In this document: positions 13,410-64,000 of the stretch, piece after piece
Layout of the letters: each line of letters starts with the position of its first letter
Position numbering within the stretch: the first letter of the stretch is position 1
Source: Moniliella sp. 'wahieum'
Taxonomy: Eukaryota
DNA length: 64,000 nucleotides
Assembly: GCA_003971905.1 (NCBI GenBank)
Contig: RSEE01000015.1
Span: forward strand, 310,001-374,000
Reading direction: 5' to 3'
Program-made: the position numbers and the translations under genes
Notes under the pieces: generated by a model
What the model was told of the DNA's origin: nothing
Database searches by the model: none
The model's input: only the letters and a program-made list of their open reading frames with translations

Positions 13410-14288
13410 CTTACGATGATGGCATTACGATGATGGCAAGACCTGAGGCCTCAGCCCGAGGTTTCTGTCGCTGCGCTGGATCGCTGGATCGCACCAGACG
13501 GTCAGGTTTGCTGGGGCTGAGCGCTCAGGCTGAGCGGGCGTCGACGCAGCAGCTGTGACATGTGACACCGGTTTTGATTGGTTGTCGCAGATGCTCGATG
13601 AGTTCAACGTTTACATGGCATGGCAACATGTCGTCGGCAATGCTCACGTTGGGCCTCTCATCCCCCCTCCTCTCTCCTCGCTGTCCTTTCCTTGATGCTC
13701 TTATCTCTCTCTTTGATACCATCTTGCTCGCCCACGTCATCTACTCCGCCACGCGCCAATGCGTTGTTCTGGAACAGGCATTCCACCGCCTCAGCCATGG
13801 GCGGAGACAGGATGGAAGAAATAGGTGGGGCGACTTGGGGCGCCCGAAATGGGGCCTCAGCTGCTGAGTAGATTCGGCAAGGCAGATAGAAGATTGTCGT
13901 GTCGGCTGGAATGACGTCGGGCCTTCCTGACCACGTCGGGCGGTCATGCGTCCATGCATGACGTTTGTTTGTGACAGGTGGCATCCGCCTATCCGCTCCG
14001 AACAGGGGCAGTGTGGACCCACACGGGGGGGCGACACGGGCGCCGTGGCTGGTTCGCCCTGGTTCGTTGGTCTTCCCTCCTCTTCTGTTCCCCCGCGTGG
14101 AGGGCGGCGGGAGAACCACAGGCCACTGCCCCCGTGCCTGCGCCTCCCGGCGGCGGTGGGTCCCCACCGCCCCAGTGCGCCCTCCCCGCCTCGGTGCTTC
14201 TGGGGGCGCGCACTGGCCACTTATTTAAACGAGCCCCCTGGCCGGTGCTCCCCCATCCCTCCTCCATCTCCCACATCTCTCTCCTACC

Positions 14289-16291
<2,003 letters not shown>

Positions 16292-16801
16292 ACAAGTCGA
16301 CTTTGCCACTAGCTCGCCTTGTTTTGTTCTCTGTTTCTTCATCCCATGATGCCCCTTCGTTACGGCGCTCGCGACGCTCGAGGCCGTTGTACTACAAAAA
16401 TTCCCATGATTTGACTCCACATGCTGTTGAGATGTAGAATTCCCACTTGATATAGTTCCTTGAAGGGGAGGAATAGCCATCGTACATGCTAACTGCATTT
16501 GCAGCTCGTCAAACACGTTCAACATTCCTTGGACTGATAGACCCACGCGGGGTCCCGCCTCAAGCACAATTGGCTGCCCTATCCACCTACCTACATCTAC
16601 TTCCCCGGCGGTATGGGCGGGAGCTGGGGGTGCACCCTGCCCGGCTCGCCTGAGGCAGCACGACATGATGCCATGTGGCAGGTGCTTTGGCTCGGGGTTC
16701 AATGGAACGTTGACAGAATGAAGATGAATGAATGGTAGATGTACAAAACATGCGGGGCGAAGGCGAGGGGCGCGAGGCGCGAGGCGAACCTGGGCGGCAC
16801 T

Positions 16802-45308: not shown

Positions 45309-48300
45309 CTACGCCATCGCCTTGGCCAGCAGACCTTTGTACTTGTCCCCCAGCTCGTCCCACAAGCCTGGACGGGCGCCCTGCATGGCCTCCAGCGTCG
45401 GCCCCAGCTCTTTCAGCCGCCGCGGCACTTCCCCCCTCAGGTCCAGGGTGGCGACCGGTCGTGGGCCCACTCTTCTTTGCCCATCGCGGCCGCTGGATCG
45501 ACCGCGCCGGCCTCGTCCATCACTCCGAGATCCAGCAGGTCCGACACGTGCATCCCCCCAACGACTAGTCGTCCCACCCGTCCTCGTCGACCTCCTCCGC
45601 CTCGGGCTCCTGGCCTGCCGACTTCACCGTCCAGCACTCCATCAACGCACCCAGCAAGCAAGCGCGACGGTGGAGCGGTAGAGTGTGTTGGCCGGCCATG
45701 GAACGCGTTACAATTTGCCTCCGGTCGGTAGCACTTCCCCCCGTACAGGTAGCGTCAGTAGCAGATCCCCTCCCTCCCGCAGCAGACGCAGCAGACGCCA
45801 GGGCGTTCACCTTGCGTGCCCAGACGCCATGCAGCGATCCGTCTCTTGCATCCAGCGTTCCGCCACGAGCGCAGCCCTGTCCGTCACCCAAGTCCAGCGC
45901 AGCGAGCACAGCCAGCGCATCGGTCCGCGGGCACACCAGCGTCGGGCCGGAATCAGGTAGAGAAGGGGCACGAGGATGCCGTGGGTTAAGGATGCTGTCT
46001 TGGCTGCCTTGAGGCGAGAGACGAGGGCACGGAGCAGCTCGCTGCTCTGTTGGAGCATGCCCTTCTCTCCGGATCAGGGCACAAAGGAACGGTCCAAGCG
46101 CCAACCGGCCGTCGTTTCGAGCGTGTCCTCGGGTCGAGCAAGGCAGTGAGCACGGGGCAAGGAAGGCGCGTGTCGAGGTGGGTGGCAGCGTGGGAGCAAG
46201 GGTGATGGGAAGCCCGTTCCAGGCCAGTGTGGGTTCGGGCGCCTTGCCAATGAGGTAGGTGAGGCTCTGGACGAGCGCCTGTTGCACGTCCGGTCTTGTC
46301 CCAACTCGGCCCAGGCACCCACCAGGGCGGGGAGAAGGGTGGGGCAGCTTGGACTGTAGTAGCGCATCGGGCTGAGCCGCACGAAGCAATGCATCAACAC
46401 ATGCCAGAGTAGCTGCCGCCGCCCGCGTAGCCCAGCGTCCATATCCTCCTTAGTCGCCCCCTCGATACTGCCTTCCAGCTGCACCTCGGCCTCGGTGGGG
46501 CGCACCACGTACCCAGCCACAAGGGGAATGCAGCACTGAGGATGGCCACATCCGCTGGCGCTTGCACCTGGGACACAAACGCCTCCAACACATCCTCCGC
46601 CACCGAGCTCACTACCGGATCGTCTCGCTGGGCCAGGAAGGTGTGCACCACGCCCTCGGCCAGCGCGGACGCTTCGCGGCGCTGACGCTACCCGAGGAGA
46701 GCGCAGCGACGCCAAACAGCCTGCACGGCCTCCAGAACCAGACGCTCGTGTCACTTTGTTCAGCAGTCTGGGTGCTTTGCAACAGACGGCCCAGGTGGCC
46801 CAGGAGAGTCGGCGCACACTCGCTGGCTTCAGGTGGCGTGGTAGAGGAGGCGAAGTGACGATAAAAGTTGCGCACGGTCCGCGTCGCGGCGGCCGTCGCA
46901 ATCGCATCGCTGCCGCCCAGGGTGAGGGTGGCCGCGTTAAGGAACTGAAGAGAGATGCTGAGGGGCAAGGCGGCGGCAAACTGGGAGGCAAAGAGGAACG
47001 TTTGGGCGGTCAAGAGAGGCGGGGCATTTTGCACATACGGCGCCACGGCCAGATCAAACGTTTTTTCCAGTTCAAACGCTGGCGTTTCAGCGAGCAGGTC
47101 TCCGTTGCCTCCCAAGAGGAGCAGGATAGCCTCAATCGGTTTCCACCAATCTGATCGTCCTTGAGCGCGGTACGCCTCTCCGACGGCCACGCGCGCCGGC
47201 ACAGCGCGTACCAATGCTTTGACACTTGCGTCTGGAATCACCTCCAATAGGTCCGACACCGGTCTCGAGCCCAGTGGCGCGCAAGGATTCCGTGCCAGCA
47301 AAGATGGCACCTCCACCATCGGCCTCATCAAGCTCGGCGACAAAGGCGTTGATGAACGGACCATTCCTCCTCTTGCTCGTTGGTCACCATGCAAGTTGGG
47401 TCAAACTTTCGACCCAGGAGCCGAGGAGAGAGATCCCACCTTCCTGACCTGGGCGGAGAAGATTGGAGCAGGTTGGAGACCGTCTTGTGGTACGCGCGAA
47501 GAAGCGCGCTGGCCGTCTCCACCGCTGCGCTCGCCACACCCGGGAGGGAGGAAGCAATGTCCCCATCGCCTTCGGGGGGAAGCCAGCTGGCTCCCCTCTG
47601 CCGAGGGGCTGGTTTCGTAGGTTTCCAAGGCCTGTGCGGCAGCGCGGGTAACAGCGAGGGAGGCAACGACCACGTCCGACACGTGCGATTTGAACACAGG
47701 CTTGACATGCGACGCCAGCTGGAGCGTGCGCAGCGCCTCGGCAGTGAGTGCAAGCTGTTCCCATGTTTCCACTCCCTGGGCACTCGTGGCGAGCGCATGC
47801 AAGCCCTGCTCGCCTTGCCGCACGAGCTGAAGAAGGGCAGGGATCCAACGAGGGAGCACAGTCTCAAGCGCCGTCTGGGCCGCTTGTGGAAACTGTTCCC
47901 GGATCAAGTAGGTAGCCTCGAGCATCTGACGCACCAGACCAACAGCGCGGGCCTGAAGGTGCGCATCGATGCCTTGGGGCGATGAGACGATGGCCTCGAG
48001 ACTAGGGAGAAGCTGATCGGTAAGGTGGAGGAGCTGGTGCTCGTCCAACTCGGAACGGGCAAACTCGGACAGGAAGACGAGGGCGCCATGAGCCTTGTGC
48101 GGGGTAACATTGGCTGGATCAAGTGCGGAAATGAGGACAGGCAGGAGCTCGGGCATCTGGTCGGGGAAGTCGGTGCTGGCCACGTGGCTGAGCGTGAGGG
48201 CCGAGGCGAGCCGGAGTTTGCGCTCGTCAGAGAGCAGGAGCTCAAGGAGGGTGGCGCGAACTTGGGCCTTGGCCGCGGCGGGCATGGCCTCGCCGTTTAC

Positions 48301-48543
48301 GCCTGTGTAGTTGGCGCCGAGAGGAGACCAGGTGGCATCGACAACCTGGCGCAGAAGTAAGGAAGCGGCCTGGCGGATGGGCAGCGGGACAGCCGGGGTG
48401 GCAGCGACCTGGACGAGAGCAGGGCCAAAGAGGCCGTCGCTGGTCTTGCGGTGCTGCAGCTGGGCCTCGGCATGGGAGCGGAGGCCCGTGTCGGCGTCGA
48501 GGGTCTGGGCGAGGAGCTGGGCAACCGCGTCAGGATCAGCCAT
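45309..48543 (-). CDS. KAP114: Importin-beta family karyopherin, importin-9/Kap114-like
   Basis: IBN_N-type start LLAQTLDADTGLRSHAEAQL...IRQAASLLLRQVVDATWSP, VASTDFPDQMPELLP, WWKPIEAILLLLG, FLFASQFA and an acidic C-terminal tract. About 3.2 kb with frameshifts. Confidence 0.85.
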
Positions 48544-50331
48544 GGCGGTGGGGGGGAGGAGCAGCAGAAAAGTGGTGGAGAGGAGGCGTGCTAGGCTTGC
48601 TGGCTGGTTTTTTTTGTTGGTTTTTTTTCTGGCAGCCAAAGCGAAGAGGTGGTGCGCGCCGCGCTTTTACATCAGCAGCCCCACACTTGTCTTGCCCAGG
48701 AGAGCAGGGAAGGGGATGTTGCCTTGACGCGTCGCGCCGCCCCCACGCCGGGGCAGGCATCGCACGCACCAGGATTGGTCTTGCGTCCGGCGCTCCCGCC
48801 CCGCCCGCGTCCCACCCATGCGGGCGTGCCAGCCCCATATCCATCTCTTCGCGCCCCTCACACCTATTACGTCTGCGTCTCATGTCGGAATCCGACCCCC
48901 GGGTCTTACACGTTTCCCCCAACCTACTAGTAGTACTACACTGGACGTTAGTACGTACTAGAGTTACCGCTCTTTTTACCATCGATGGCTCGGGACCCTC
49001 TTGGCGTTTGTTTGCATGGGGTGCAGCCCAGTCACGCCTTCTTCCGAGGGAGGCACAGCAGCGCGTCCTGGCCGCCGCCTGGTTCCGCGGCTTCCCCTTC
49101 GCACGCGTTCCCTCCACCTGGGCGAGTCCTCGACGCTACGTTAAGTACCACATTACTTGCTGCCCACGGTCGATTGACACTGTGCGTATCGAACACGAGG
49201 CCTACCCCACCCAGTGTTGCTCTCACAAGACCGGGTCAACCAGGATACTACTAAGGACTTGCAGGGCAGCATATCTCCACGCTCTTTCTCCTTGCAATGG
49301 TTGTGGCATCGGAATCGTAGTCGGCCCAGGCCCATGCGGACAATGAGTTCACGCCGTGTCTGTGCGCTTCTCGCCCTGTGTTGGCCACCGCGGCGACCAT
49401 TTTTTCATGCTGGGGATGGTGGCTCTCAGCAACTTTTTTGTAGCTTCTGCCGGGTTCGGCCGCTTGAACTACACGGAGACCTGCCTTGAACGAACGATCG
49501 GAGGAAGTTGCAGGGTTTGAGGGGGTGGTGTGGGGCATCATGTGTGCTTGCATTGTATGCTGATTTTGGCGCTTGGACACAAGCGTAGTTTGCTGGTGCC
49601 GTGTGGAACGGCCATGCATATTCTTTGTGACGGGGGATAGGGGTGTTCTGTTTTGGCACATTGGGCCCTGCAATGGGCGAGGCACTAGTATTGCTGTGAT
49701 GCATACTATGATGTGGGGGCCAAAAGAAGCGCGAGCAAAAGTGCATACTGGTGACGGCAACTGGTGTTGGAGCTGTTGGGCTGCTGCCCCATGGATGATT
49801 TGGCGGGGCATGTTTGCCCTGAGGATGAATATTGAAGGGTGAAGCTTGAGCCTCAATCGGGAAGCGATTGGCGTAGGACGATGGAGCGGGGAGGAGGAGG
49901 GGACTAGGCACAGATGGGGTGCGAGGGCATCGGATGGACTGTGCGGCTGCATGCGGGCGAGGTGTGATGTGACATGTGATACAGTGTGCTGTGATACGGG
50001 CGATGGCGATGGAGAGTGCGCTGCTGCCTGCGCTGGAAAGCCAGACCCCCTCGGGGTGCCAGGCGGCTGTCGGGCTGTCGGAGCTGGGATGCGACGATGC
50101 GGAGGGCAGGCGGTGGATCGCATGCGCCGTGCTCAGCCATCCGATGGCTGAGCATTGATAGAGCATTGCCTCCTGCTGCTCCGCCCTCGCCATCGCCCTT
50201 GCCCCCGCCCTCGCCCTCGCCGTTGCCCCCCCCCTCGCCATCGCATCCCCCCCCCCCCCCCAACCACCGCCCTCGCTACCCCCCCCCTCCCTTCCGTGGG
50301 CCGATGAGCCGCGATCACGCGCGCCGTGGCC

Positions 50332-53300
50332 ATGTCCAGTGCCGCCGTGGCCATCACATCTCCCACCCCTAGTCCCCCCCCACCTCCTCCTCTTCGCCCC
50401 TCCCCACTGCCTTTTCCACCCATCTGCATGCCCTCGCCCGCGCCCACTGGGCTGCCCAGCCCCCTCACGCCGCGCTCGACGGATCCACCGTCCCCCAAAT
50501 CCTCGACGCTGTCCTCTCCGCCCTCTCTGTCCTTGGCAGCCCCGACACGCTTGCTTCCCTCGCCGCCTCCGCCAGCCTGGCCTGGCGGCTGGACCCACTC
50601 TACACCAGGCGCCACACCACCCAAGACGGCGAAGCCAGGATGGATCCGTCTCTAGGAACGGCGCTTGGGCTCGGTCGCTGCCCACCACGCCTTCCTGCGC
50701 CCACGCCCACCCCCTCCACCCAAGTCTCGAGATGGGCCTGGGCCTTTTCTGGTACGCTTCCCCTTCCCTTGCTGATGATCCTGTCCCCGCGCCCGGTCCC
50801 GACCAGGTTCGCGAGACCGAGTCGGATGAGTGGCAGCTGTGCCTGTTGGGGGAGGGCGAGCAAGAGCGGATCATGCGCCGTTCGGTGGCGGTCAAGATGC
50901 TGACGCATGCCCTGAGTACGTCGGCCACTGAGGAACCGCCGCCGCTCACTTTGCGCGCCGGTGCCAAGACGCCCAAACGCAAGCCATGCTGAATACAGTT
51001 CCGATGGCGTGCACATCCGCCCTGCCGTTGCCGCTCCCGCGGTCGTCGTCACTGCCGACAATCCTGCATCCGGCTCGAGTCTGGCACTGCCCGAACCGGC
51101 CGTGTCGAGCACGGCAGGCGCAGAGGACATGCCGTCGGTCATGCACTTAGCCTCCATCGCAGCCCATGGGGTGGGAGTTTTGGGCTCGGAGGCGTTTCGA
51201 ACTCCTTCCACATCGCCCCGTCCTCCTTCGAGCGTGAGCGAAGACAAGCCCAAGGAGAAAGAGAGAGAGAAAGGGAAAGAGAAGGAGAAAGAGGAAGAGA
51301 GAAAGAAAAGGAAGGAGGTACAAGCCGTGCTCATGCGCATCTTGCCGCCATCGCTGCTTCCGGCCCGTCTCGTACACCGCACCGTGAGCGTAGGCCACCC
51401 CTGCCGCCCCAGCCGCCAGGACCAGAGGGCGTGACACTCACCCTAACTGCGTCCGAGGCGGAGAGACTGACAGTAGAACGGGCCGAGCGGGCGTTTGCGG
51501 CACGGATTGTTGAGGCATGTGAGCCTTCCACCCGAGTTGCCAAAATTCAACTCCAGGTCGAAGTCTTTCTTGAGGGGAAGCAGGTGCCGCTCTCCCATCT
51601 TGATGCGCATTTAGGGGACACGGAGGACGTGCCGGGCCCCTCGTCCAGGGTACGCTGGTCCTCTTTCCCCCGACCACCCAGCCAGTCCGATGAGCCCGAC
51701 CTGTTTGGCCGAGTGTATCCTTCCTCTTCCTCCTCCAATATCCCTACCCCATTGGAAGTCGCAACGGCCCGGTCCTCCCCAGAAAGCTCGCTTTTGCCAA
51801 CATCGCCTCTCCCTTCCGCACTTTCGGGGGGCGAGGATAAGATTCATTTGGTGGGCGGGACGTTTTCCATCCATGCCCGCTCGGCTTCCGAGGCAGGACG
51901 CGTGGTGGACATGTTGCGTACCCTGGTACGTCGTCTGTTTCCTTCCCTGCGGGCAAGAGACGTGAGCTAACCGTTCTTTGCTAGATGTATGCCGGGCAGG
52001 CGATGCTGCTTGAAGCGCAGTTCTTGGCCAACATGGGGATGGAACTGCCCTATCCGGAAGATGTACCGACTTCGACCCCCGCGGCCCGTGATGCCACCCC
52101 ACTGTCTCCTCCTGAGACTCACGCGAAAGAGAAGGATGGTTGGGGCAAGCAGATTTGGTCCTTACTCTCTTCGGTACGTCCCAACCACCAAGGTACGATC
52201 ATTGCGCCCCAAGGAGCAGAGATGGAATAGTGAGCGCATCCTGCGCGTTGAGGATGCTCCCTCGCACCCGACGCGCCCGCACATCAGTCACCTCGCTTCA
52301 ACCATTTCTGTAAGCCGGCTTGGGCATCTGCACCAACCGCGCCCTGGTTCCGTTTCGCGTTTTCTCCGTTCACTTTGGGGAAATGAGGAAACGTCAAACA
52401 CCTCTCCAGTTTCATCGCGACGTTCTTCGTTTACTCGGTCTCGCACTCTTTCTTTCCGCCGCACCCTCTCTCCTCCCACCACCCTTTTCATCGCAAGAAT
52501 GATGAAGGTAGCGCATCGGAGCCCGAGTCGGAGCATGCGGCGCAGGCGGTGCAGGCCGTGCGTTGGACACGACCCAGTAAGGTCGAGCGGATCGTCACCA
52601 CGTCTCCCTTCCTCCAACGGGAAGGGAAAAGTTTCGCTTCGTCCCAAGCGATCGCCCTGATTCGCGCTATCCCCCTCCCACGCCTACGCCGATCCCAATA
52701 CCCACGGACGCCCTTCGCCCCAACGACATGGGAGGCACGTCCGCCCACCCCACCCCTTCGTCACCCAGGACACTCCCCTCCCGTGCGCCGCGAGCAGAAC
52801 AGCGCCGCGTCACAAGTCTCACCTTCCCGCGCCCAATACAAGCGAAGCCCCGGAGCGTTTCGATGACGCTGCCTTCCTCGGACGCGGACTTGGCGCAGGG
52901 CATAGCCCCTGACGATGCCACCTCGACCGACAAGGCAGAGGCCCTGCCTCGGCCCTTGATCTTGGGCGATGATGCGGAATGGGTAACGATCGACTTTTTC
53001 CGCGCGCTTCGCAAGACAGGCGACGTACGCCTAGGACAGGTGGTGGAGACGTTAGCCTTGGCTGCCGCGGCCGCGGCCGGGGCCGGGCCAGGGACGGGGC
53101 CAGAGGCAGAGCCAGGGGCAGGGGTGGGGGCGGAGCCAAGCAAGGCGCCGCCCGACGTGGCGTATGGAGAGGAGACATGCTGGACCCTAGCGCACAATGG
53201 GTACCTTGTTACCCTTGCCGCTCGAGCGGTACGCGCGGGCGGGGAGAACCCGCCTTGTCTTCCCGGGTGAGCGTGGCCAGCGAGAGTGACTCGGCATGTA

Positions 53301-55603
53301 GCCAGTCGGAGAAAGCCGATCCCGAGAGTGAGGCGCGGGCTGTGGCCGAGTTACTCCAAGTTGGGATTGAGCCTGCACGCCAGGCGCTTCGCTTGGCCGA
53401 TGGCCTGGTGCGCCGTGCTAAGCAGCAAGCCGAGGCTGACTTGGGCGTCGATTCCGACCCACTCGTTCACGGTCCCATTGGGCCCGTCTCGCTCTGGACG
53501 GTTGTCGACGGGGTCCCGTCCAAGACCCAATGGCTCTCACCGGGTGCCTACCTGTGGTCTTTGGGCAAGTTTGTCGAAATGCTGATCTACCACACCTTTA
53601 CCGCCGACGGCCTTCCCTCCCAGCCCCGGCCCACCCCCACTTTCTTCTTCCGTACGACCCACGCCGTGGTAAAGGCCACAGCTTCTCCCTTTCGTCTATA
53701 TCACCTTCAGCTCCAAGATCCCTTCCTTCCGTCCCCACCCCAGGAGAAGGAGCAGCGTTTGGAAGCGGTACGTTGGAATTCCTTTGTGAAGAGCCGAGCT
53801 GACGATCTCCAGGCACGCGAGACGCTTGTGGACTGGACCCAGTCCTTCTATACGTCGGTGCAGCGTCACCTAGACAACGCCGCGCTCATCCTGGCGCAGC
53901 AGGCGGAAGCGCCTGGTGCCGCGGCGAGCGAGGCGCAGGATGACCCCAGCTCTCCTCGAGCCAGACTGTATGCGCTGCGCCAGGTTCTCGCCGAGGAGCA
54001 CACCCACCTCGAAACCACCATCCGCTCCACCCCCATCACAGAGCTGAACGATGCACGGATAGCGTTGCATGATCGCGCTGCGGCGGCGGCGGCGGGCCGA
54101 GGCTTGGTGGGGGAAGTACCTTGCTGATCCCATGCCAGAGACGCACTACGCCTGGCCCCCCTGGGAAGAGGAGTGATGCTGCCCTCGTCTTCTGTCGTGG
54201 TGCGCATGAACGATCCCTTGTCCGTCGTGGCGTACACCCTCAGCCTCCCTAGTTTCCAACGGGCCGTTCATTCCCATGCAGTCAGCCGGGATTCGGCGGT
54301 AGGCTCCCCACTCGAGCCCAAGGATTCGATGGAAGAGTTGACTGCGCAACCTTCCCGCTCCACTGTTTCCACTTCCCAACAGTCCACCGCTGAGCCTCCG
54401 CCTCCCGACCCCGACGATCCCGACGCGCAGTTCTACCGCCCTGAGCGCACAATGGGCGTGACCAAGGCCAAGAAACGGGCCAAGGATGCGTCGTTGCTTA
54501 CGTTCAACAAGCTCCGTCGCCTCTCCTCGCGGCAGAATGAAGAAGGGGACCATACGTGGCCGCGCAAGGCGCCGTATACCCCGTTGCGTCCCGTGTCGAC
54601 GCCCAGCCTGTACAGCATGCCTGAAAAGGATGAGTATGACTCGGATGGCGGCCATGGCACGCCCACCTACCCCCACTACCCCCACTCAGTGCATGTCAAG
54701 CACACGGTCACCCGGGGCGCGCAAGGTATCTTGTACAGCGTGGCACGCCGCTTCGTTTGCCCGCTTGCGTTCCCTGTGGGGTATGGGGGAGACGGATTTG
54801 GTAGAGTCGTTGAGCCATTGTACCAACTGGGCCGCTGGCGGCGGCAAGTCCTCCTCGGCGTTTTTCCGTTCGTCAGATGGCAAGCTGGTGGCCAAGCAAC
54901 TGCAGGCCGTCTGGACCATGGATGAGACGGAAGCGTTCCTGGACTTTGCGCCATCGTACTTGGCGTACGCGACCCACTGCGCCACCAGCCACCAGCCTAG
55001 TCTGCTGGTCCGCATCCTCGGCGTCTACAGCATCAAGATCAAGGACACCACTGGCCGGATACCTCGGAAGCAAATGAATCTGATGGTGCTGGACAATGTA
55101 TTTGCCCATCCTGCCGGGGCTGGGCCACTGCTGCGCTTTGATCTCAAGGGCATCCGCGACCGACGGGTGAAGCATGCCAATTTCGCCTTGGACCCCGGCG
55201 GCCATGTGTGGCACGATGCCGAGTGGGCGGAGCAAATGCGGCGCAGCGCGTTTGTCCCTGCGCCCGAGAAGAGCGGCTACTGCGTGCGCTCGAGCGCGAC
55301 GTGGCGTTCCTAGTGCAGCGGGACCGGATGGACTATTCGTTGCTGGTGGCGGTAGCGGGCACGCGGGTGCGGGTGCAGTGGTGGACTACCGGGGCGTTTA
55401 CATGGGGCAAGCAACTGGAGAGCACGTCCAAGCGCGTGCTCAAGTCGCCCGATGGTAAACACAACGTCACCATCCTCCCGCCGGGCGAGTACGCCGAGCG
55501 CCTGCAGACGGCAGTACGCGAGTACTTTGTCGCGTGCCCCACGGGCGGGGAGCGAAGAGCGAGGGCTGCCGAGCGTGTTGTAGGGTCGGTGGAAACAAGG
55601 TAA
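50332..55603 (+). CDS. FAB1/PIKfyve-like phosphatidylinositol phosphate kinase with no visible FYVE domain
   Basis: PIPK motifs GGKSSSAFFRSSDGKLVAKQ, LVRILGVY, FDLKG, MDYSLL, VVDY, FTWGKQLES and TILPPGEYAERL. FAB1-type segments WSLGKFVEML and VVRMNDPLSVVAYTLS. Start uncertain; multiple shifts. Confidence 0.82.
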
Positions 55604-56936: not shown

Positions 56937-57797
56937 TTCGGGGCTCAGCGTCCGAAGATAACTCGATTACCGCGATAACCGGAGCGCCCCGTAACAGAGA
57001 CGCTCGAGAAGAAGAAATTGGAAATGGGGGCGAGATAAGCCGAACAATTACATCAGTTACACTGCCCGATACATAGTATCTCAGAGTATTATTCGCCCAC
57101 GAAAGGCTCTCGCACAATCGTCGTTCGTACCGCTCTCATCCATTTTCATATCCTTGATATACTAAGTGAGAGCGTACCCAGCCAGGTCAGGAAACGGTCT
57201 GAAATTCGCCACGGACATATCCCATCCGATTCGGATGTCGGATGGACACGGTGGATCTCGAGACTGGTGATGCCTTGTTTATTCACGAAGTTTTGGTCTA
57301 CCCAGCGCTTACGGGGTTTGTGGATGGTATCAGTTTTATCCCATCCACTCTACCCGCAAGCCACTTTTTTCCGACCAGAATGCATCGGGGTGTAACCACA
57401 ACCGGTCCACACCATCACAATCCTGCGAACCACCGCCGCATATACGACCGACAGAGGATTGAAACTGATCGACGAGGTGAAAGAGCACCGCGGTAGACTT
57501 TATTGGAGGGGGGAGAGGGTAGTGAAATTCGGTGGACAGTGGCCATAGGGGGCATTTCAGAAGTGGCTTCGAAAGCACGTAATGAACAATACCACGGGTA
57601 GGGTGGTAGGGTTGTTTTCGCAGCTTGTAATTTTAGCGACTTCATGGTGTGTGTTCCTGCACGTGAAGTTGCGGAGGGAAAGGTGAAGCGGCCTTCTTCA
57701 CGAATATCGCACGTAACTTGGAGGAGAGGGGAAGAGGAGCTAAGCGTGTACCCTTATCACACCTTCACGCTTAAGATGTTGCCAAACGCATGTGGCT

Positions 57798-60588
57798 CTA
57801 TGCCGTCGGTGTTTGGACATCATGTGGCACGGGAAGTGTGCAGTCCATGAGGGATGACGGAGAAGGGGAGGGGGATGGAGTAAGATCCTCCGACAAGGCA
57901 GTGGGCGAGAACATATCTTGAGCGGACGGAGGGGGGGTCACTAATTTGGAACCCCTCGTTGACAACTGCTTCTGAGGAAGCGGTAGAGCATCAGTGGCCT
58001 GATCACGGAGGATATCGGCGCGCATTTTTTGACGGCGCCGAGCAATATACCGTGAGCGTTTGGCCCTTCGCCTCTGTTTCCGTTCCTCCTCGGGGAGTTC
58101 CGGAACACCGCCGTTGCGCTTTCGGAGGGCCTCGGGACGATGACGTGTACAATAAAAGTCGTCCGTACGCCAGTCGATCGGAGAAATATTTTGACGAATT
58201 AGAAAGTTGTTCCAGCAGCGGGTATGCTGCCTGATTCCACACACGGCGCACTCTAACATCGGCCACTTTCGAACACCGAGGGAAAACTGTCCCTTGCGGC
58301 CACAGACCTCACAGTCATAGGTCACCATTCCTGGTGCTGTTGTCGCCGCTGACTTGGGTTTAGGAGCGAGCGATGCAGTGGGATCCCTCGGTGTGGGCTG
58401 CTCTAGCTTCTGGCTTATTGGGTCCAGGAAATGAGCGGGATCTCCCTGGCAATATTGCCATGGCCTTACAGCACCACCTTCCTTTTGTTCGCCTCTAGTC
58501 GCCCGCCACGCCTTCAACCACTTGCGCTGGGCTGCCGCTCGCTCCTTTTTGGCCCAAGTCTGCTGTAGGGCCCTCTCCTTCTTAGCCTGGGTCACTTGCA
58601 GCACCCCCCTTTTCTCCGTCCGGGCCTTCTTCCTCCCGGATTCAAGCGTAGTATCCACCTCCGCTTTGACTTGGTCTTCAACCCGTACTTGCTCTTGAGC
58701 CACCGTGCGGCAAGAACGCTTCCGCGTGTCCTGGAAAAGCTCCATGAGTTGAGCTCGGGCTTGAGTTGCCTCCATTTTCTCGGCCTTGGCTTGGGCATCC
58801 ACATCCGCTAATATTTTGTCCAAGCGCGAGGACAAACATGTGAACATGGCCACCTCGTCCGCGTGTTGCTTCCTCCTCCTCTTGACTTTTTTCTTCCTTG
58901 GTGGGCAAAGGGCGGAAAAGAAGGCTTCCCACTCGGACCGTGCGCAGCAGACCACCTCCATTTCCACACTCCCCTCGAGTGGAGCTTCAAGTGCTGCGGC
59001 ATCCAATGCGTACTGTTTGTCCCATTGCTGGAACTGTGCGAGCTTTTCCGCGTCGGCTGAGAGTGCAGCACGCCGTATTCCACTTCCGACTGTGCTCCTG
59101 GCATCATATCGTTGGCGTCCGGACCAACATGGTGCTCAGGACTCAACATTGACTCCGGGCACGGCATTTGTGAACGAGAGGGTATCGCCGTCCCGTGCTC
59201 TGCAGGGGGAGCATCAACGACGATACCGTCATCACACTTGGACGAGTAGGCGTCCGTCGACGGGCGGCCCTGCTGAGTCAGTAGGGCATCAGAGTATGTG
59301 TCTTCCCCACCATCCTCAGCTGCATTCGAATCTTGGTAGGGCCAGGGGTTAGGTGCCTGTTGTGAGGACACCATTTCCATCTTGGTTGGTGAATGAGCCC
59401 GTGTTTCTGAAGACGGCCCGACTCGAGTAGCCGCAATTCAGGAAGATGCACCCCCTTCACAGGATCCTCCAAGTCCTCTGAGTCCTCTGAGTCCTCAGAT
59501 TCTCCTGGTGCCTCCGGTTCCGTTGGCTGTTGTGGCTTCCCCGAATGGGCATAGAGTACCCATAAGCGCGTGCCAATTAGGTAGTACGTGTTCCCGTTCC
59601 GATCAGACCCTATAGGGTCGTTTTGCTCGTGTTGAACAAGACTTTCCTCAGTCACCATATGGAGGCAGTCGGGCGTTTCGGAGATCCAAGAAGTGACATC
59701 ATGAAGGACTCCTAATTGAATGGGACGGGACAGGGAGGCAAACGTGCGTGGGTGCTCGTCCGACCCGAGCCAAGCAGAATGCGAAGGCATACGACGCTCG
59801 TATTCAGCCCGCAGGGTGCTGAGCCATGTCTCAGACGAGACGGTTCCGGGAGTGAGGAAGCGCATCAGCAGGCGAATTATCTCGGCTGTGCGCACAGCCG
59901 ATCCATTCACCAAATCCTGCTCCAGTTGCCACGGTGACATGGTGGCAGACCCGAGGAGTGGCCGGAAAGCCGAGAGGAATTGGCAGACGGCAGCAAAGCG
60001 TGCATCGCGGCGGAGACGGGCGATTCCCGGCTCGGTGCCCTGTGACGCAGCGAGAGCGGTGGTGAGGGGGTGTGAGCCAGGTTCGACAGAGGCGATAGGG
60101 AAACCCCGAGGAACTGAGAGCGTAGGCGTGGGTGTGGGTGTGACGACAGGTGGTGGTGGTGGCGGCGGGGCAACCTCCACAACAACGTTGCGCGTTGTTT
60201 CTGGTGGAGGCCAATCAAACCCTAGAAGCATTTGGAGTTGATGGGCAACATTGTGCTGGAGGGCCAGCTGAACTGCAGGGCCAAGCGGGATCCATGTGCC
60301 CTGACACTGGATGGGCGTGCCCTTCACTCTGTCATACTTGCAAGTGAGGATGAGCTTATCCAGTATACTCCTCCACTCGGCAGGCCCCAGTCCAGCAGCT
60401 TTCAGGATCTGGGTCGCGTTCAAGTATCCATCGGTCTTCCGGCGCATGCACGCAATGTTGCCCACCTTTGCCTCGTATACGGGCACACGTCCGTAGTTCA
60501 CCTCAGTAACCTGGCTTGGAGTTGGCGTGACGGTGGATACACCGGCGAGAGCGCTCGCCGCAGCGCCAGGAGCACCAGATGGAGGCAT
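57798..60588 (-). CDS. APSES/KilA-N domain fused to a DDT/WHIM-like module and a PHD finger
   Basis: ORF 59278..60648 holds YGRVPVYE..VGNIACMRRKTDGYLNATQILKAAG...QGTWIPL (APSES), then LRRDARFAAVCQFL...LEQDL (DDT-like), FASLSRPIQLGVLHDVTSW (WHIM1-like) and PIGSDRNGNTYY...RLW (WHIM2-like). ORF 57798..59006 holds EVVCCARSEWEAF (WHIM3-like) and CEVC..CAVC..QH..C..FYC..H (PHD). Two frameshifts in the linker. First in-frame ATG is at 60588. Confidence 0.8.
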
Positions 60589-63500
60589 GGCTGTGGTAGA
60601 AGAGGATAGAGCAGGCGGCAATTTGAGTGCTGTTCCCGCAGATGGCAAAGCGGATTAGACCACAGCGGGCGGAGGCGGAGCTGGTTGGGTAGAGCTCAGA
60701 GCGAAAACGGTGCTGGCCGATGTCGATTGTAATGAACGCCGGCGGTGTGTGTGTGGTTCACGCCAACACCCACGCTCAGACGCTCACGACGCCAGTGCCC
60801 GTGAGTCCGTGTAACCCTAACATACACCGCTATTTACCCATTCATTACGTACCAGACTGGCCTAGTGCAGCACAAACTGTGTTACGTAACAGTGTCTCTG
60901 CCGCAGCATTAACCAGGCTCGTCCTGACGGACACATTTCTGCTCTCTGGATCTGATACGTAATGACATTTCTTTCGGAATGTCCAGATCGTTTGGAGTTC
61001 ACCGACAATATACATGAGGATGCCGGCATAACTGCTCATAATTTCTTGCCAGGGAAACTTTATGTGTAGTCACAAAATTCTATCACGAAGCCTCGATTTG
61101 AGTGCGAGCCATGCACGGTCGAGAGGAAAAAGTTAGAAGACCAAAGGTTGATCCCACCAGAAACTGGGGACTGTTTGACTGCATGAGATACTAGAAAAAG
61201 GCAGGATTTGCTTGGATTTGAGAATGAATTGTCGGAAGGATGGCGATGGAAGAGGATCGATGACCCCGCAAGAGGTGACGAACAAGTTGCAAAGACCAAT
61301 CCAATGAAGCCTGTAGAGGAATAGGCAACAAAATAAATTATGAGCGTTACAGGATAGCTCTTGGGTTTTGGCCAGGATCCCGTCAGTCCCCTTCCGTCCG
61401 GCGTTGGTGCACCGCTGTTTTCGCACTTCTGCTGTACATGCAGCACGGTCAGGCCTGATGAAGACTGGCCGCATGATGACCCTGTTGGGGTGATAGGCTG
61501 GCTTAAATGGTCAACACCACCACTAGTGCGATTGCACCACTGTCGACCGCAATCAAGACGCCAGGGCCCATCACAAAGGAGAAAGTGTGAGTGTAAACAA
61601 TAAGGTCCGCAGCCCGCAACAAAAGGAACAGGGACCAAAAGCGGAATGCACCCCAGCCTCAACCAGAAAACGCAGTAGGGAAAAGCCTCCAGACAAAAGA
61701 AACGCACCAATGAGAGAGTTCGACATTGGCGATGGAATAGGTCAACATAAAGAAAGGATTTGAAGCGGGCCCAAGCGCACAAATAACCACCGCCGTACGG
61801 CTGGTAAAGACTGGGGCCAGATAACCCAGGTCGAAGGGAAACTGCACCATTTCGACAGAACCAAGTTCATCGTTTCGGTCGATGAGACAATCCGTTCGTC
61901 AGGCAGACATAACCCAAGCAAGAGAGACGGAGGAACCTTGTGAGTACGGCGTCGGGATCGTCCTCCCGTCTTCGCCAGGGATATAATAATGCTCGTTGTG
62001 TGTATTTCGCACGGGCGACCGATTGAGGTACCGTTGGGGGTGGTAACGCAAGAAATGGCTTGATGGTAGGAGACAAATTCCCTCTTCGTGGGCAGCGCAC
62101 CCCATGTCAAGTCAGGGCGTCAGAGCGTAGCTCAATTTTGGCGGTCCAGCACGACTAGACAGAAAAGTCCGTGAAGTCTGTGAAGTCCGTGAAGATATTC
62201 CATGTGTAACGCGTCTCGCGCGCCATAGCCCGTCGCGGGCATATTCCGCTTCGAGGCCGGATGTGGCCATAATTGAGTGACCTGCCCATCGCCCCAGGGA
62301 CGGGATACAACCACGGCGTCACCTCTGGGGTGGACTTACTGTTTAGTCTGAGGAGCGGGGCAGAACGGCCGACGCGTAACCGCAAACTCCATTCAACGGT
62401 GGGGTAATCGGGTCGACGATCATGGTGTATTCTGTGCACTTGGGGCAAGAGGTAAGGGGCTGTCGTCAACCGCCCCACCACGATGGAGCCAACTGCAGCC
62501 CTCACCACGTTCCGAACCTCAACGGGTCCAGAACAACGACCAGACTGGGGCATGTGCCCGACTCTGTCTCATCTCTGCGATCGAGGCCACAGCGATGCGC
62601 CCACCCAAGTGTACTATCTCAAAGCATCGACGAAAAAGCACTGCGAGGTAAGGGTTATTCTTGGAAACACACAACCCGGCACCAGCAGCGTTAGGCTGAG
62701 GGCACCAGCAGCATTAAACAGTGCGCATGCTCAGCGAACGTTGAGCTCCGGCACGTCTCGCGCAGGACTTTCAGCACAGGAAGCTCGTGGTGATGATGAG
62801 GATGGTGGTCTGCTGAAATATGGAGTCTGAGGCTCCGACCCTCAGGCCAGAGCTCAGGGACGGAGTCGCTGCAAACAAGCACAGCACCAACCCTAGCCAT
62901 CTGAGCGGAAGACGAAAACACTGACCCTGTGCCCCAAGGCGCAAGTGGCTTACGCAGTTGGACCACCATGTGTCATGCATTATGATGGGTGATGGATGGA
63001 ACGGTCAGTTGGCCACTGCATAGCGATCGGTGATTGGTACGTAAGCGCCCTCGAAATTCTGCATGCCGGGACCGCCACTAGCGCAACAGCAGGAAAGCGA
63101 CACAAACTACTAGGACGACAGGCCAAGAAGGAACGCGGCGTTGTGGCGACCACCAGGATGGTCCGTACGCGCGTTTGCTGACAGCTGTCCTGGAGCTCAC
63201 ATCCAGCCATCATCCCGCCAGACAATGCGCGCATACGCCAACCGGATTCGTTTGTCCTGGGCCATTCCTAGAAATGATTTATCGCGGGAGGGCGCGATGA
63301 AGCAACCATGCCATGAAAACGCCCCAAAAGAAAAGAACTTCATCCGCAGTACTGAGAAAAGCTATCAAGAGAGACAGAAGGTGATATGGCGGATAGGATC
63401 GATATGTGGAGAGGTAAGAAAGAAGTGGCCTGGCATGGACGGGCCAAGTAGAGGCAAACGATCGTGCTTCGCACACTTAGGTCACGTTTGGCATACCACA

Positions 63501-64000
63501 TCATAGTAGTGTTTGCACTTACACCCCCGCCCCACTCCACGACGCCTCGAGGCGATGATCCGATTGCCTGCTGGTGATGATGAGTCCGAGACAATTTGTG
63601 GGCTTGGTGGGGGAATCTCTTGAGGCCCATTAGAATTTGGCGCACGCATGAAGTATAGCGACACCAACATCAGTTTATACTACTGTGTGCATCATCTGGA
63701 AGCACGGTATCATAGAGGGCATGAGCTTGCCGAAGTCATTGGCGGTGGATTCTCAGTCCAGAGGGTATGTTGAGGAAAGATATGAGCTCCGAAACTTACT
63801 CAGGGAACCACTGCGGACGGATATGTTCATGTGATGGGCCCCACAAAATGAAAACCGACGACCACGCTCCGATAAGAGGGCAGCAATCAAGAGTCGCTGG
63901 AAAGGCCTCCCCTGAGTAATGGGAGGGGAGGAGAAGCTTAGGCCGTGACCTTGCTAATACGAACAGCGTATAGGATCAGAGATGAGACCACAAGTTGACA

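What the first reader, a model, noticed from the sequence alone, without database searches (positions are those of the whole stretch)
57798..60648. APSES (Mbp1/Swi4-type) DNA-binding domain fused to an RSF1/Ioc3-like DDT-WHIM-PHD chromatin module
Seen: the APSES/KilA-N domain (about 60513-60214) and the DDT/WHIM1/WHIM2-like block (about 60025-59545) lie in one uninterrupted frame, joined by a Pro/Thr linker. A WHIM3-like segment, a coiled coil and a PHD finger follow after two probable sequencing shifts. Established: Mbp1/Swi4/Res proteins pair APSES with ankyrin repeats, while DDT-WHIM proteins are ISWI remodeler accessory subunits that normally lack a sequence-specific DNA-binding domain. 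No ankyrin repeats are visible here. I do not know this architecture. Inference: a lineage-specific chimera that could target an ISWI remodeler to chosen loci.
Basis: partly seen in the sequence, partly recalled or inferred. Interest (0 to 1): 0.8.

Follow-up and report, generated by a model that had tools for sequence, protein, structure and literature searches.

The report
APSES domain fused to DDT-WHIM-PHD protein
A fungal gene joins a DNA-reading domain of the cell-cycle factor Mbp1 type to a protein of the kind that guides nucleosome-sliding machines, a combination not found in any other searched protein, though it comes from an error-prone assembly and is unusually divergent.

Summary
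On the minus strand, one gene runs from ATG 60588 to stop 57798-57800. One uninterrupted frame encodes an Mbp1-type APSES domain (residues 17-129; E 8e-16 to solved Mbp1 domains), a Pro/Thr linker and a ~160-residue block (60027-59548).

That block is the N-terminal module of a fungal family, mostly basidiomycete, that carries a PHD finger further on (E 2e-43; 48 members). The window is collinear with this family through the PHD.

None of the 48 members has an APSES domain. No protein among 1.84 billion representatives combines the two parts.

DDT/WHIM identity is supported only below curated thresholds: collinear DDT, WHIM1 and WSD hits and RSF1-like nearest clusters. The fold search was inconclusive.

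The two frame changes have no canonical intron signals. HSP70 and a PIP5K gene in the same window show similar breaks inside conserved sequence, so assembly indels are the likely cause.

Caveats:
- The copy is the most divergent family member (43 of 96 conserved columns).
- Its APSES wing region is altered.
- No reads, RNA or whole genome were available.

Plant homeodomain-DDT proteins are a precedent, so this is a new variant of a known kind.

The parts
57798..60588 (-). Whole inferred coding region (about 929 codons if the two frame breaks are read through): ATG 60588-60586, stop TAG 57800-57798
   Evidence: ORFs. Sequence. Codon usage favours frame A to ~59400, B ~59340-59060 and C from ~59030.
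60202..60540 (-). APSES / KilA-N winged-helix DNA-binding domain of the Mbp1/Swi4 type (residues 17-129), divergent in the wing region
   Evidence: phmmer against solved structures: 4ux5_A 8.1e-16, 1mb1_A 3.4e-15. 56 of 56 hits carry KilA-N plus ankyrin. Pfam KilA-N 19.7 bits, below the cut-off of 23.8. The window is identical at 25 of 45 columns conserved at >=80% in 179 homologues.
60028..60201 (-). Pro/Thr-rich linker (residues 130-187), same frame, no stop and no in-frame ATG
   Evidence: Sequence; translation.
59548..60027 (-). DDT/WHIM1/WSD-like block (residues ~188-347), homologous to the N-terminal module of a fungal block+PHD family
   Evidence: P0058 E 2.1e-43. Alignment A1 has 22 invariant columns. 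Family profile i-E 1.5e-41. AF2 model pLDDT 76.7, helical core >90. Family members give sub-threshold DDT (3/48) and WSD (12/48) hits. Nearest named Atlas clusters carry DDT/WHIM1/WSD.
59548..59625 (-). WSD-type motif 'DPIGSDRNGNTYYLIGTRLWVLY' at the end of the block
   Evidence: Aligned with the 'PIGWDxxxNxYWLFDDNRLWIQ' motif. That motif gives the Pfam WSD hits in relatives.
59028..59547 (-). Acidic, non-conserved linker holding both frame changes. A to B lies between 59437 and ~59340; B to C lies between 59135 and ~59045.
   Evidence: Frame limits. Codon usage. No canonical intron. No family homology in frame B.
58035..59027 (-). Conserved C-terminal module in frame C: 'SVEMEVVCC..EWEAF' segment, 'RKRSCR' motif, basic coiled-coil-like stretch and zinc finger
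   Evidence: tblastn with P0058 residues 519-862, E 3e-36. Family profile i-E 5.6e-27.
58149..58313 (-). PHD-type zinc finger, ligand pattern C-x2-C...C-x2-C-x4-H-x2-C...C-x2-H (last ligand His, as in P0058)
   Evidence: Pfam PHD E 0.015 and PHD_4 E 0.0023, both below cut-off. Sequence. PHD found in 36 of 48 family members.
60630..60852 (-). Candidate intron in the 5' leader (GTACGT...CTAAT...CAG), unverified
   Evidence: Pattern scan; sequence.

Best explanation
This is one real gene of a smut-related basidiomycete. In it, a divergent Mbp1/Swi4-type APSES DNA-binding domain has been placed in front of the lineage's RSF1-like chromatin protein. That protein has an N-terminal DDT/WHIM-like helical module, an acidic linker, a basic coiled-coil region and a PHD finger. 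The two frame changes in the linker are small indel errors of the assembly.

Proposed working:
- The APSES domain binds a DNA motif. It need not be the MCB motif, because the wing region is changed.
- The DDT/WHIM module holds an ISWI-type ATPase through its HAND-SANT-SLIDE part.
- The PHD finger reads a histone tail.
- Nucleosome sliding would thus be directed to chosen sites by one polypeptide.

Shown: the domains, their order and their single frame; membership of the block+PHD family; absence of the combination elsewhere in the sets searched.

Inferred: that the frame breaks are errors, that the block binds ISWI, that the APSES domain still binds DNA, and that the gene is expressed.

My odds: fusion real at the DNA level ~0.8; gene intact and functional ~0.65; ISWI-linked function ~0.6.
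For: APSES:
- E 8e-16 to solved Mbp1 domains and E 1e-22 to APSES-ankyrin proteins.
- The core motifs MRR..D..NATQILK.AG and QGTW are kept.

Block and C-terminus:
- E 2e-43 and 3e-36 to P0058, collinear.
- 48 family members were collected. The block starts within the first 60 residues in 47 of them. PHD is found in 36 of 48.

DDT/WHIM nature:
- WSD in 12 of 48 members, DDT in 3 of 48, one WHIM1 hit, all in the canonical order.
- One member is named 'WHIM1 domain-containing protein' by UniRef.
- The nearest named Atlas clusters all carry DDT/WHIM1/WSD. One is named 'Remodeling and spacing factor 1'. Scores 0.88-0.75, with 186 shared features for the first.

One gene:
- Only 58 residues (174 nt) separate the two domains.
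- There is no stop and no in-frame ATG between residue 120 and residue 216.
- Codon usage favours frame A throughout.

Frame breaks as errors:
- HSP70 (14229-16291) changes frame twice within 200 nt of perfectly conserved sequence, with no room for an intron.
- PIP5K changes frame between profile positions 130 and 138.
- Real introns in the window carry GTAYGT..CTRAC..YAG signals and are 45-80 nt long. None lies at the breaks.
- Frames A and C stay open for 458 and 445 codons.

Mechanistic precedent:
- In budding yeast, the Mbp1 DNA-binding domain (1-136) tethered to an Isw2-recruitment helix restores Isw2-directed nucleosome positions at Mbp1 sites. Swi6 recruits Isw2 through the Itc1 WAC domain (passages of PMC7968928).
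- DDT binds the SLIDE domain of ISWI, and plant homeodomain-DDT-WHIM proteins exist (passages of PMC4901127).
- Neurospora WHIM and PHD proteins co-purify with ISWI (passages of preprint 10.1101/2021.06.29.450346).
Against: - The window protein gets no Pfam DDT, WHIM1 or WSD hit at E<=1.
- All family hits to these models are below the curated cut-offs: best WSD 22.5 against 25.4, DDT 18.1 against 22, WHIM1 13.9 against 19.1.
- The family profile finds no solved DDT/WHIM protein by sequence.
- Foldseek finds nothing at E<=0.001.
- In the wide fold search the top matches are calponin-homology domains (Z 9.4, 8.6). Ioc3 is only rank 27 (Z 5.2, rmsd 9.2).
- The copy keeps only 43 of 96 columns conserved at >=85% in the 48 relatives. 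That is fewer than any relative (lowest 49; P0058 83). The losses cluster in the WHIM1/WSD half: 9 of 23 kept there, against 18 of 22 in the DDT-like half (my tally of the columns printed).
- The APSES domain differs at 20 of 45 highly conserved columns, including the wing (GGYGKY becomes GTPIQC) and K69, R72, T73. DNA binding or its specificity may therefore be changed or lost.
- The fusion is seen in a single, indel-prone assembly. No orthologue with the same architecture supports it.
Confidence: 0.5

Rival explanations
1. The fusion is real at the DNA level, but the gene is a decaying or recently inactivated paralogue. On this reading the two frameshifts are genuine and the protein would end after the block (436 residues). 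A canonical block+PHD gene and canonical MBF/SBF genes elsewhere in the genome would do the work.
For: - Two frame breaks.
- It is the most divergent member of its family, 43 of 96 conserved columns against 49-96 for the relatives.
- 20 of 45 conserved APSES columns are changed.
- It has no orthologue with the same architecture.
Against: - Frames A and C remain open for 458 and 445 codons and keep coding-type codon usage.
- All eight zinc ligands and the RKRSxR motif are kept.
- HSP70 and PIP5K in the same window carry the same kind of break, so breaks are expected from the assembly alone.
Confidence: 0.2
2. The fusion is an assembly or reading artefact. On this reading two separate genes, an APSES gene and a block+PHD gene, have been brought into one frame. 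The cause would be a misjoin, or indel errors that removed a stop and a start.
For: - The assembly demonstrably contains small indels.
- All three frames are open across the GC-rich low-complexity linker.
- In 47 of 48 relatives the block starts within the first 60 residues.
- No reads could be examined.
Against: - Only 174 nt lie between the end of the APSES domain and the start of the block. That leaves no room for a terminator, a promoter and two untranslated regions.
- Codon usage is continuous in frame A.
- There is no composition break.
- A 130-residue stand-alone APSES protein would be unusual.
- A chance in-frame misjoin inside a 174-nt stretch is improbable.
Confidence: 0.12
3. The gene is real, but the block is not an ISWI-binding DDT/WHIM module. 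The family would then be another kind of helical chromatin or scaffold module. The protein would be an APSES transcription factor with a PHD reader that acts without a remodeler.
For: - All DDT, WHIM1 and WSD hits are below curated cut-offs.
- The best fold matches are calponin-homology domains (Z 9.4), with Ioc3 only at Z 5.2.
- There is no sequence match to solved DDT/WHIM proteins.
Against: - The sub-threshold hits recur in independent members and fall in the canonical order DDT, WHIM1, WSD.
- 9 of the 10 best Atlas hits with a family share one family or clan, and the clusters shown carry DDT, WHIM1 or WSD.
- UniRef names one member a WHIM1 protein.
- For helical models, Z below about 13 may reflect only a common arrangement (note).
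Confidence: 0.18

Closest known systems
Basidiomycete block+PHD family (e.g. Sporisorium scitamineum SPSC_01723 = P0136; closest member P0058, unnamed)
   Same: The N-terminal block, the 'EMEVV..EWEAF' segment, the RKRSSR motif, the basic coiled-coil region and the PHD finger are collinear. In the window and in P0058 the last zinc ligand is His.
   Different: In 47 of 48 members the block starts within the first 60 residues, and none has an APSES domain. The window copy has an APSES domain plus linker in front, a shorter linker after the block, and the lowest conservation of all members.
RSF1 (remodeling and spacing factor 1), partner of the ISWI ATPase SNF2H
   Same: The overall order is an N-terminal DDT/WHIM module, a long charged middle and a PHD finger. 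The RSF1 layout is recalled, not from a call. Clusters named RSF1 are among the nearest in the Atlas feature search.
   Different: RSF1 has no APSES domain. Similarity shows only as sub-threshold Pfam hits and language-model features. No direct alignment with RSF1 was made here.
Plant homeodomain-DDT class (RLT1/RLT2), ISWI subunits
   Same: A sequence-specific DNA-binding domain lies N-terminal to DDT and WHIM1-3 in one polypeptide. DDT binds the SLIDE domain of ISWI (passages of PMC4901127; PMC11950633).
   Different: The DNA-binding domain is a homeodomain, not APSES. These are plant proteins with other accessory motifs (D-TOX, HARE-HTH).
Mbp1/Swi4/Res1/Res2 (MBF/SBF DNA-binding subunits)
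   Same: An N-terminal APSES domain with about 40% identity to the solved Mbp1 domains. The domain sits at the extreme N-terminus.
   Different: There are no ankyrin repeats and no Swi6-binding C-terminus. The wing residues are changed.
MBF/SBF-Swi6 recruitment of Isw2-Itc1 in budding yeast
   Same: The logic is the same: an APSES DNA-binding domain brings an ISWI complex to specific sites. The Mbp1 domain (1-136) plus a recruitment helix is sufficient (passages of PMC7968928).
   Different: In yeast the link is in trans, through Swi6 and the WAC domain of Itc1. Here it would be covalent and through a different accessory protein. No WAC domain was seen.
Neurospora ISWI accessory factors IAF-1 (WHIM) and IAF-2 (PHD); yeast Ioc3 and Ioc2
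   Same: These are fungal WHIM and PHD proteins that co-purify with ISWI (passages of 10.1101/2021.06.29.450346). Ioc3 is the only WHIM-type chain in the fold list.
   Different: There the WHIM and PHD parts sit on separate proteins. There is no APSES domain. Orthology was not tested.

Membership tests
APSES / KilA-N DNA-binding domain | Significant sequence similarity over the whole domain to solved APSES domains | tested here: met
   4ux5_A E 8.1e-16 over residues 17-129. Three further Mbp1 chains at E 2e-14 to 3e-15.
APSES / KilA-N DNA-binding domain | Pfam KilA-N (PF04383) at or above the gathering score | tested here: not met
   19.7 bits against a cut-off of 23.8, E 7.9e-4. Relatives P0060 and P0061 reach 33-36 bits.
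APSES / KilA-N DNA-binding domain | Conserved core motifs (MRR..D..NATQILK.AG helix-turn-helix; QGTW wing base) | tested here: met
   These positions are identical in the window. Overall 25 of 45 columns conserved at >=80% in 179 homologues are kept. The stretch K69..Y95 is largely changed.
MBF/SBF proteins (Mbp1, Swi4, Res1/2) | Central ankyrin repeats and a C-terminal Swi6/Cdc10-binding region | tested here: not met
   No ankyrin family at E<=1 in any of the three frames. 56 of 56 long APSES hits do carry ankyrin families.
MBF/SBF proteins (Mbp1, Swi4, Res1/2) | Binding of MCB/SCB DNA motifs | not testable with these tools
   This needs a binding assay. Changed wing residues make the specificity uncertain.
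DDT-WHIM ISWI accessory proteins (BAZ/ACF1/RSF1/Ioc3/Itc1) | Pfam DDT (PF02791) at gathering score | tested here: not met
   No hit in the window at E<=1. Three of 48 relatives hit at 16.6-18.1 bits against a cut-off of 22, each at the start of the block.
DDT-WHIM ISWI accessory proteins (BAZ/ACF1/RSF1/Ioc3/Itc1) | WHIM1 and WSD (WHIM2/3) motifs after the DDT domain, in that order | tested here: inconclusive
   WSD in 12 of 48 relatives (best 22.5 bits against 25.4). WHIM1 in one at 13.9 against 19.1. The order is DDT, WHIM1, WSD. The window copy has no hit. One relative is named a WHIM1 protein by UniRef.
DDT-WHIM ISWI accessory proteins (BAZ/ACF1/RSF1/Ioc3/Itc1) | Fold like the solved WHIM-type protein Ioc3 | tested here: inconclusive
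   2y9z_B has Z 5.2, rmsd 9.2, 156 residues aligned, rank 27. The top matches are calponin-homology domains at Z 9.4. Foldseek found none at E<=0.001.
DDT-WHIM ISWI accessory proteins (BAZ/ACF1/RSF1/Ioc3/Itc1) | Binding to the HAND-SANT-SLIDE part of an ISWI ATPase | not testable with these tools
   No ISWI sequence of this organism was available: no genome is held.
PHD finger | Eight zinc ligands in C4-H-C3 spacing | tested here: met
   Read from the frame C translation: C-x2-C, C-x2-C, H-x2-C, C-x2-H. The last ligand is His, as in P0058, where other relatives have Cys.
PHD finger | Pfam PHD (PF00628) at gathering score | tested here: not met
   15.7 bits against 24; PHD_4 18.3 against 30.6. 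36 of 48 relatives hit PHD at E<=0.01.
Basidiomycete block+PHD family | Collinear homology of the block and of the C-terminal module | tested here: met
   E 2.1e-43. tblastn 5.8e-43 and 3e-36 with P0058. Profile i-E 1.5e-41 and 5.6e-27.
Basidiomycete block+PHD family | Block at the extreme N-terminus of the protein | tested here: not met
   In the window the block starts at residue ~188, behind an APSES domain. In 47 of 48 relatives it starts within the first 60 residues.

The most novel reading that the evidence does not exclude
The gene would be a natural covalent version of a link that budding yeast makes in trans. There, MBF/SBF recruits Isw2 through Swi6 and Itc1. Here an Mbp1-type DNA-binding domain is built directly into an ISWI accessory subunit. 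One polypeptide would then read a DNA motif, read a histone tail and position nucleosomes. As a 'Rosetta stone' fusion it would also argue that the coupling between APSES factors and ISWI remodelers is old and widespread in fungi. It would offer a compact, programmable remodeler-targeting module.
Probability: 0.3. Interest if true: 0.65.

Novelty: new variant of a known kind. Interest (0 to 1): 0.45.

Why it matters
How ISWI remodelers find their sites is an active question. Work in yeast (PMC7968928) argues that they are obligately targeted by sequence-specific factors, among them MBF/SBF. A gene that fuses an MBF-type DNA-binding domain to an RSF1-like accessory protein would be independent evolutionary evidence for that coupling. 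It would also add a fifth architecture to the four recognised fungal KilA-N subfamilies (SBF/MBF, APSES, Xbp1, Bqt4; PMC4862756). It is easy to test by ChIP, MNase-seq and co-purification. Its weight is limited: it is a single instance in an indel-prone assembly, both halves are unusually divergent, and DNA-binding domains fused to DDT-WHIM are already known in plants.

Tried and rejected
Introns as the cause of the two frame changes:
- A strict donor search found 4 candidates, none plausible.
- 55 single-intron solutions of 235-517 nt were listed, none with a branch site and all with weak donors.
- 30 and 221 two-intron candidates had no canonical signals.
- Real introns in the window carry GTAYGT..CTRAC..YAG and are 45-80 nt long.
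- A single long non-canonical intron from frame A to frame C is not excluded. It is disfavoured because frame B has coding-type codon usage.

The 7-base insertion scars reported for this genome (earlier notes) do not explain the breaks. By arithmetic, one 7-nt insertion shifts the frame the wrong way for either break. This was not examined further.

Checks that were not available:
- Reads and RNA: none was listed for 57700-60700, and no RNA holder was listed.
- Whole genome: none is held, so the parent genes could not be sought.
- Complex prediction was not used, because no ISWI sequence of this organism was at hand.

Searches that returned nothing useful:
- A word-based search with the block alone, longer proteins, gave no hit. 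This search is weak: it also missed P0058.
- Metagenome scans: none with the ORF. With the alignment, one distant locus (L001) was found. It had a 32% match to the DDT-like part and no APSES match within 5 kb on either side.
- The family profile against solved structures gave only 5ijp_A at E 0.23.
- Foldseek against PDB gave no match at E<=0.001.
- The Atlas search with the whole 436-residue ORF gave no usable hit.

Other checks:
- Antisense ORFs 58765-59352 and 59720-60241, and the neighbouring ORFs, have no Pfam family.
- There is no second copy of either domain in the window.

Literature:
- No paper joining APSES with WHIM or DDT appeared among the 15 listed of 95.
- Two papers hold both 'APSES' and 'ISWI', each once. 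Both are unrelated by title.

Full report
**What is there**

Between 60654 and 57798 the minus strand carries three long overlapping open frames:
- A: 59278..60654, 458 codons
- B: 58808..59437, 209 codons
- C: 57798..59135, 445 codons

The first ATG of frame A is at 60588, in a reasonable start context. A codon-usage score trained on the window's long ORFs favours frame A from 60560 to about 59400. It favours frame B from about 59340 to 59060, and frame C from about 59030 to the stop. The three frames are therefore parts of one coding region of about 929 codons.

**APSES domain**

Residues 17-129 (60540-60202) match the solved DNA-binding domains of Mbp1: 4ux5_A E 8.1e-16, 1mb1_A 3.4e-15, 1l3g_A 4.4e-15, 1bm8_A 2.2e-14.

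In the large word-indexed search, all 56 hits carried KilA-N plus ankyrin families, best E 1.2e-22. The domain is therefore of the SBF/MBF kind. Pfam's KilA-N model stays below its cut-off (19.7 bits against 23.8).

Against 179 homologous domains, the window keeps 25 of the 45 columns conserved at 80% or more. The kept columns include MRR..D..NATQILK.AG and QGTW. Most of the stretch K69..Y95 differs, for example GGYGKY becomes GTPIQC. No ankyrin repeats occur in any frame.

**The block and its family**

A search of 1.84 billion representative proteins with the 436-residue ORF gave 799 hits at E<=0.001. Most cover only the APSES part.

P0058 (1195 aa) matches residues 152-368 at E 2.1e-43 and 42% identity. 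Nine further listed proteins also match only the block.

A profile search with alignment A1 added more, giving 48 members. They come from:
- many Ustilaginomycotina (Ustilago, Sporisorium, Pseudozyma, Jaminaea, Microstroma, Tilletia, Malassezia and others)
- other basidiomycetes (Calocera, Phaffia, Tulasnella, Auricularia, Cryptotrichosporon)
- one Mortierella relative
- one chytrid

In 47 of the 48 members the block starts within the first 60 residues. PHD is found in 36 of 48.

The window is collinear with P0058 in two pieces: residues 70-255 to 60099-59551, and 519-862 to 59027-58035. A family profile hits frame A (i-E 1.5e-41) and frame C (i-E 5.6e-27) but not frame B. The window gene is thus a member of this family with an APSES domain added in front.

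**Is the block DDT/WHIM?**

The evidence is consistent but sub-threshold.
- The window copy has no Pfam hit at E<=1.
- Among the 48 relatives, WSD is hit in 12 (best 22.5 bits against 25.4) and DDT in 3 (16.6-18.1 against 22). WHIM1 is hit once at E 0.042.
- The hits fall in the canonical order: DDT at the start of the block, WHIM1 in the middle, WSD on the 'PIGxDxxxNxYW' motif at the end.
- UniRef names one member a WHIM1 domain protein.
- In a language-model feature search, the nearest named clusters for the block all carry DDT, WHIM1 or WSD. One is named 'Remodeling and spacing factor 1'. Scores run 0.88-0.75, with 186 of 256 features shared for the first. By the tool's own standard this is a lead only.
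- The AF2 model (pLDDT 76.7, helical core above 90) found nothing with Foldseek.
- In the wide fold search the best matches were calponin-homology domains (Z 9.4 and 8.6). Ioc3 came at rank 27 (Z 5.2, rmsd 9.2). For a helical model this is inconclusive.
- The family profile finds no solved DDT/WHIM chain by sequence.

I put the DDT/WHIM reading at about 0.8 for the family. ISWI binding is inferred from that.

**Is the fusion unique?**

Any protein with both parts should out-score proteins with one part. Only two hits exceeded 101 bits. P0057 is a chytrid protein with seven APSES-like stretches and no block. P0058 has the block only.
- Of 212 fetched proteins, 0 had both parts, 16 the block only and 196 the APSES domain only.
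- None of the 48 family members has an APSES match: all phmmer E values are 0.45 or more, and KilA-N is 0 of 48.
- The Atlas gave no usable hit for the whole ORF.

Limits of this check:
- The representative library collapses proteins at 50% identity.
- The window's own genome is not in it.
- The word-indexed search is weak; it missed P0058.

**The two frame changes**

A single shift from A to C is impossible, because both frames are closed between 59278 and 59135.

No candidate intron has the signals of the window's real introns, which are GTAYGT..CTRAC..YAG and 45-80 nt long.

The same window shows that the assembly carries small indels:
- The HSP70 gene (14229-16291, +) matches the Pfam profile at positions 1-189 in one frame and 257-598 in another.
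- The missing 67 positions are encoded in the third frame across the roughly 200 nt in between.
- Read against the HSP70 motifs as I recall them (NVLIFDLGGG and [11 protein letters not shown]), the window reads '[17 protein letters not shown]...' and '[14 protein letters not shown]'.
- That corresponds to a 2-nt loss and a 1-nt gain inside otherwise conserved sequence, with no room for an intron.
- The PIP5K gene changes frame between profile positions 130 and 138, with 23 nt where 21 are expected.

Two breaks in a 2.8-kb gene are therefore expected from the assembly alone.

**Arguments against an artefactual fusion**

- Only 174 nt (58 codons) separate the domains.
- There is no stop and no in-frame ATG between residue 120 (inside the last APSES helix) and residue 216 (inside the block).
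- Codon usage and composition are continuous.

A misjoin cannot be excluded without reads. None was listed.

**Divergence**

The copy keeps 43 of 96 columns conserved at 85% or more among the 48 relatives. The lowest relative keeps 49, and P0058 keeps 83.

By my tally of the columns printed, 18 of 22 are kept in the DDT-like half but only 9 of 23 in the WHIM1/WSD half. For example, the 'ERFRKL' helix and 'LFDDN' are changed. Some of the deficit comes from the shorter linker and from the hard-to-align coiled-coil region.

Together with the altered APSES wing, this fits either rapid evolution after the fusion or early decay. The long open frames, the intact zinc ligands and the kept RKRSxR motif argue against old decay.

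**How it most likely works (inference)**

The APSES domain gives DNA-sequence recognition. The DDT/WHIM module docks an ISWI ATPase, since DDT binds SLIDE (passages of PMC4901127). The PHD finger reads a histone tail.

Precedents:
- In budding yeast the Mbp1 domain (1-136) tethered to an Isw2-recruitment helix restores Isw2-directed nucleosome positions at Mbp1 sites. Swi6 recruits Isw2 through the Itc1 WAC domain (passages of PMC7968928).
- Plant homeodomain-DDT-WHIM proteins are ISWI subunits (passages of PMC4901127, and PMC11950633).
- Neurospora WHIM and PHD proteins co-purify with ISWI (passages of preprint 10.1101/2021.06.29.450346).

**Comparison and novelty**

Fungal KilA-N proteins are classed as SBF/MBF, APSES, Xbp1 and Bqt4 (passages of PMC4862756). 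None of these is described there with a DDT/WHIM or PHD part.

My searches found no paper on such a fusion. Among the 15 papers listed of 95, none held 'APSES'. Two papers hold both 'APSES' and 'ISWI', and both are unrelated by title.

DNA-binding domains fused to DDT-WHIM are known in plants. I therefore rate this a new variant of a known kind, not a new kind.

**Surroundings**

Downstream, the convergent PIP5K gene ends about 2 kb away. Upstream, 60700-64000 has no Pfam-recognisable ORF. The antisense ORFs over the gene have no family.

Earlier notes of this scan call the genome smut-like. That agrees with the family's taxonomic range.

**Verdict**

- Interest is moderate (0.45). The architecture is unusual and testable, but it rests on one indel-prone assembly and a divergent copy.

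Noticed in passing
window 14229-16291 (+), breaks near 14948 and 15130: A highly conserved HSP70 gene changes frame twice within about 200 nt, with no room for an intron. By comparison with recalled HSP70 motifs, 2 nt appear lost and 1 nt gained. This shows the assembly carries small indel errors.
   Followed up: yes
window 54462-55603 (+), break near 55240-55265: A PIP5K (phosphatidylinositol-4-phosphate 5-kinase) gene changes frame between profile positions 130 and 138 of its catalytic domain. Upstream, a chain of long + strand ORFs (50993-55313) in changing frames may be its poorly conserved N-terminal part.
   Followed up: partly
window 15116-16801 (-): An ORF hits Pfam 'NAD-GH' (PF10712) at E 1.4e-64 while lying antisense to the HSP70 gene. 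It is most likely a spurious antisense frame, not a gene. That this Pfam family arises antisense to HSP70 is recalled, not from a call.
   Followed up: no
protein P0057 (Phlyctochytrium planicorne, 1873 aa): This chytrid protein is annotated 'swi6' and has seven separate stretches matching the APSES domain. Tandem APSES arrays looked unusual to me.
   Followed up: no
protein P0251 (Entophlyctis luteolus, 1365 aa): This is the only family member with the block far from the N-terminus (residues 971-1152). It also carries a GYF domain (E 2.6e-18). It is another lineage-specific fusion of the same module.
   Followed up: no
window 60630-60852 (-): A candidate intron with good signals (GTACGT...CTAAT...CAG) ends 42 nt upstream of the ATG of the fused gene. 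It may be a leader intron or point to an upstream exon. No ORF with a family was found upstream.
   Followed up: partly
window 60700-64000: More than 3 kb upstream of the gene has no Pfam-recognisable ORF on either strand, with lower G+C (0.48-0.52) and a strong AT skew around 61250-62000.
   Followed up: partly
window 45565-48666 (-): An importin-beta-like gene (IBN_N, E 1.3e-10) is spread over a chain of minus-strand ORFs in changing frames. It probably combines introns and indel errors.
   Followed up: no
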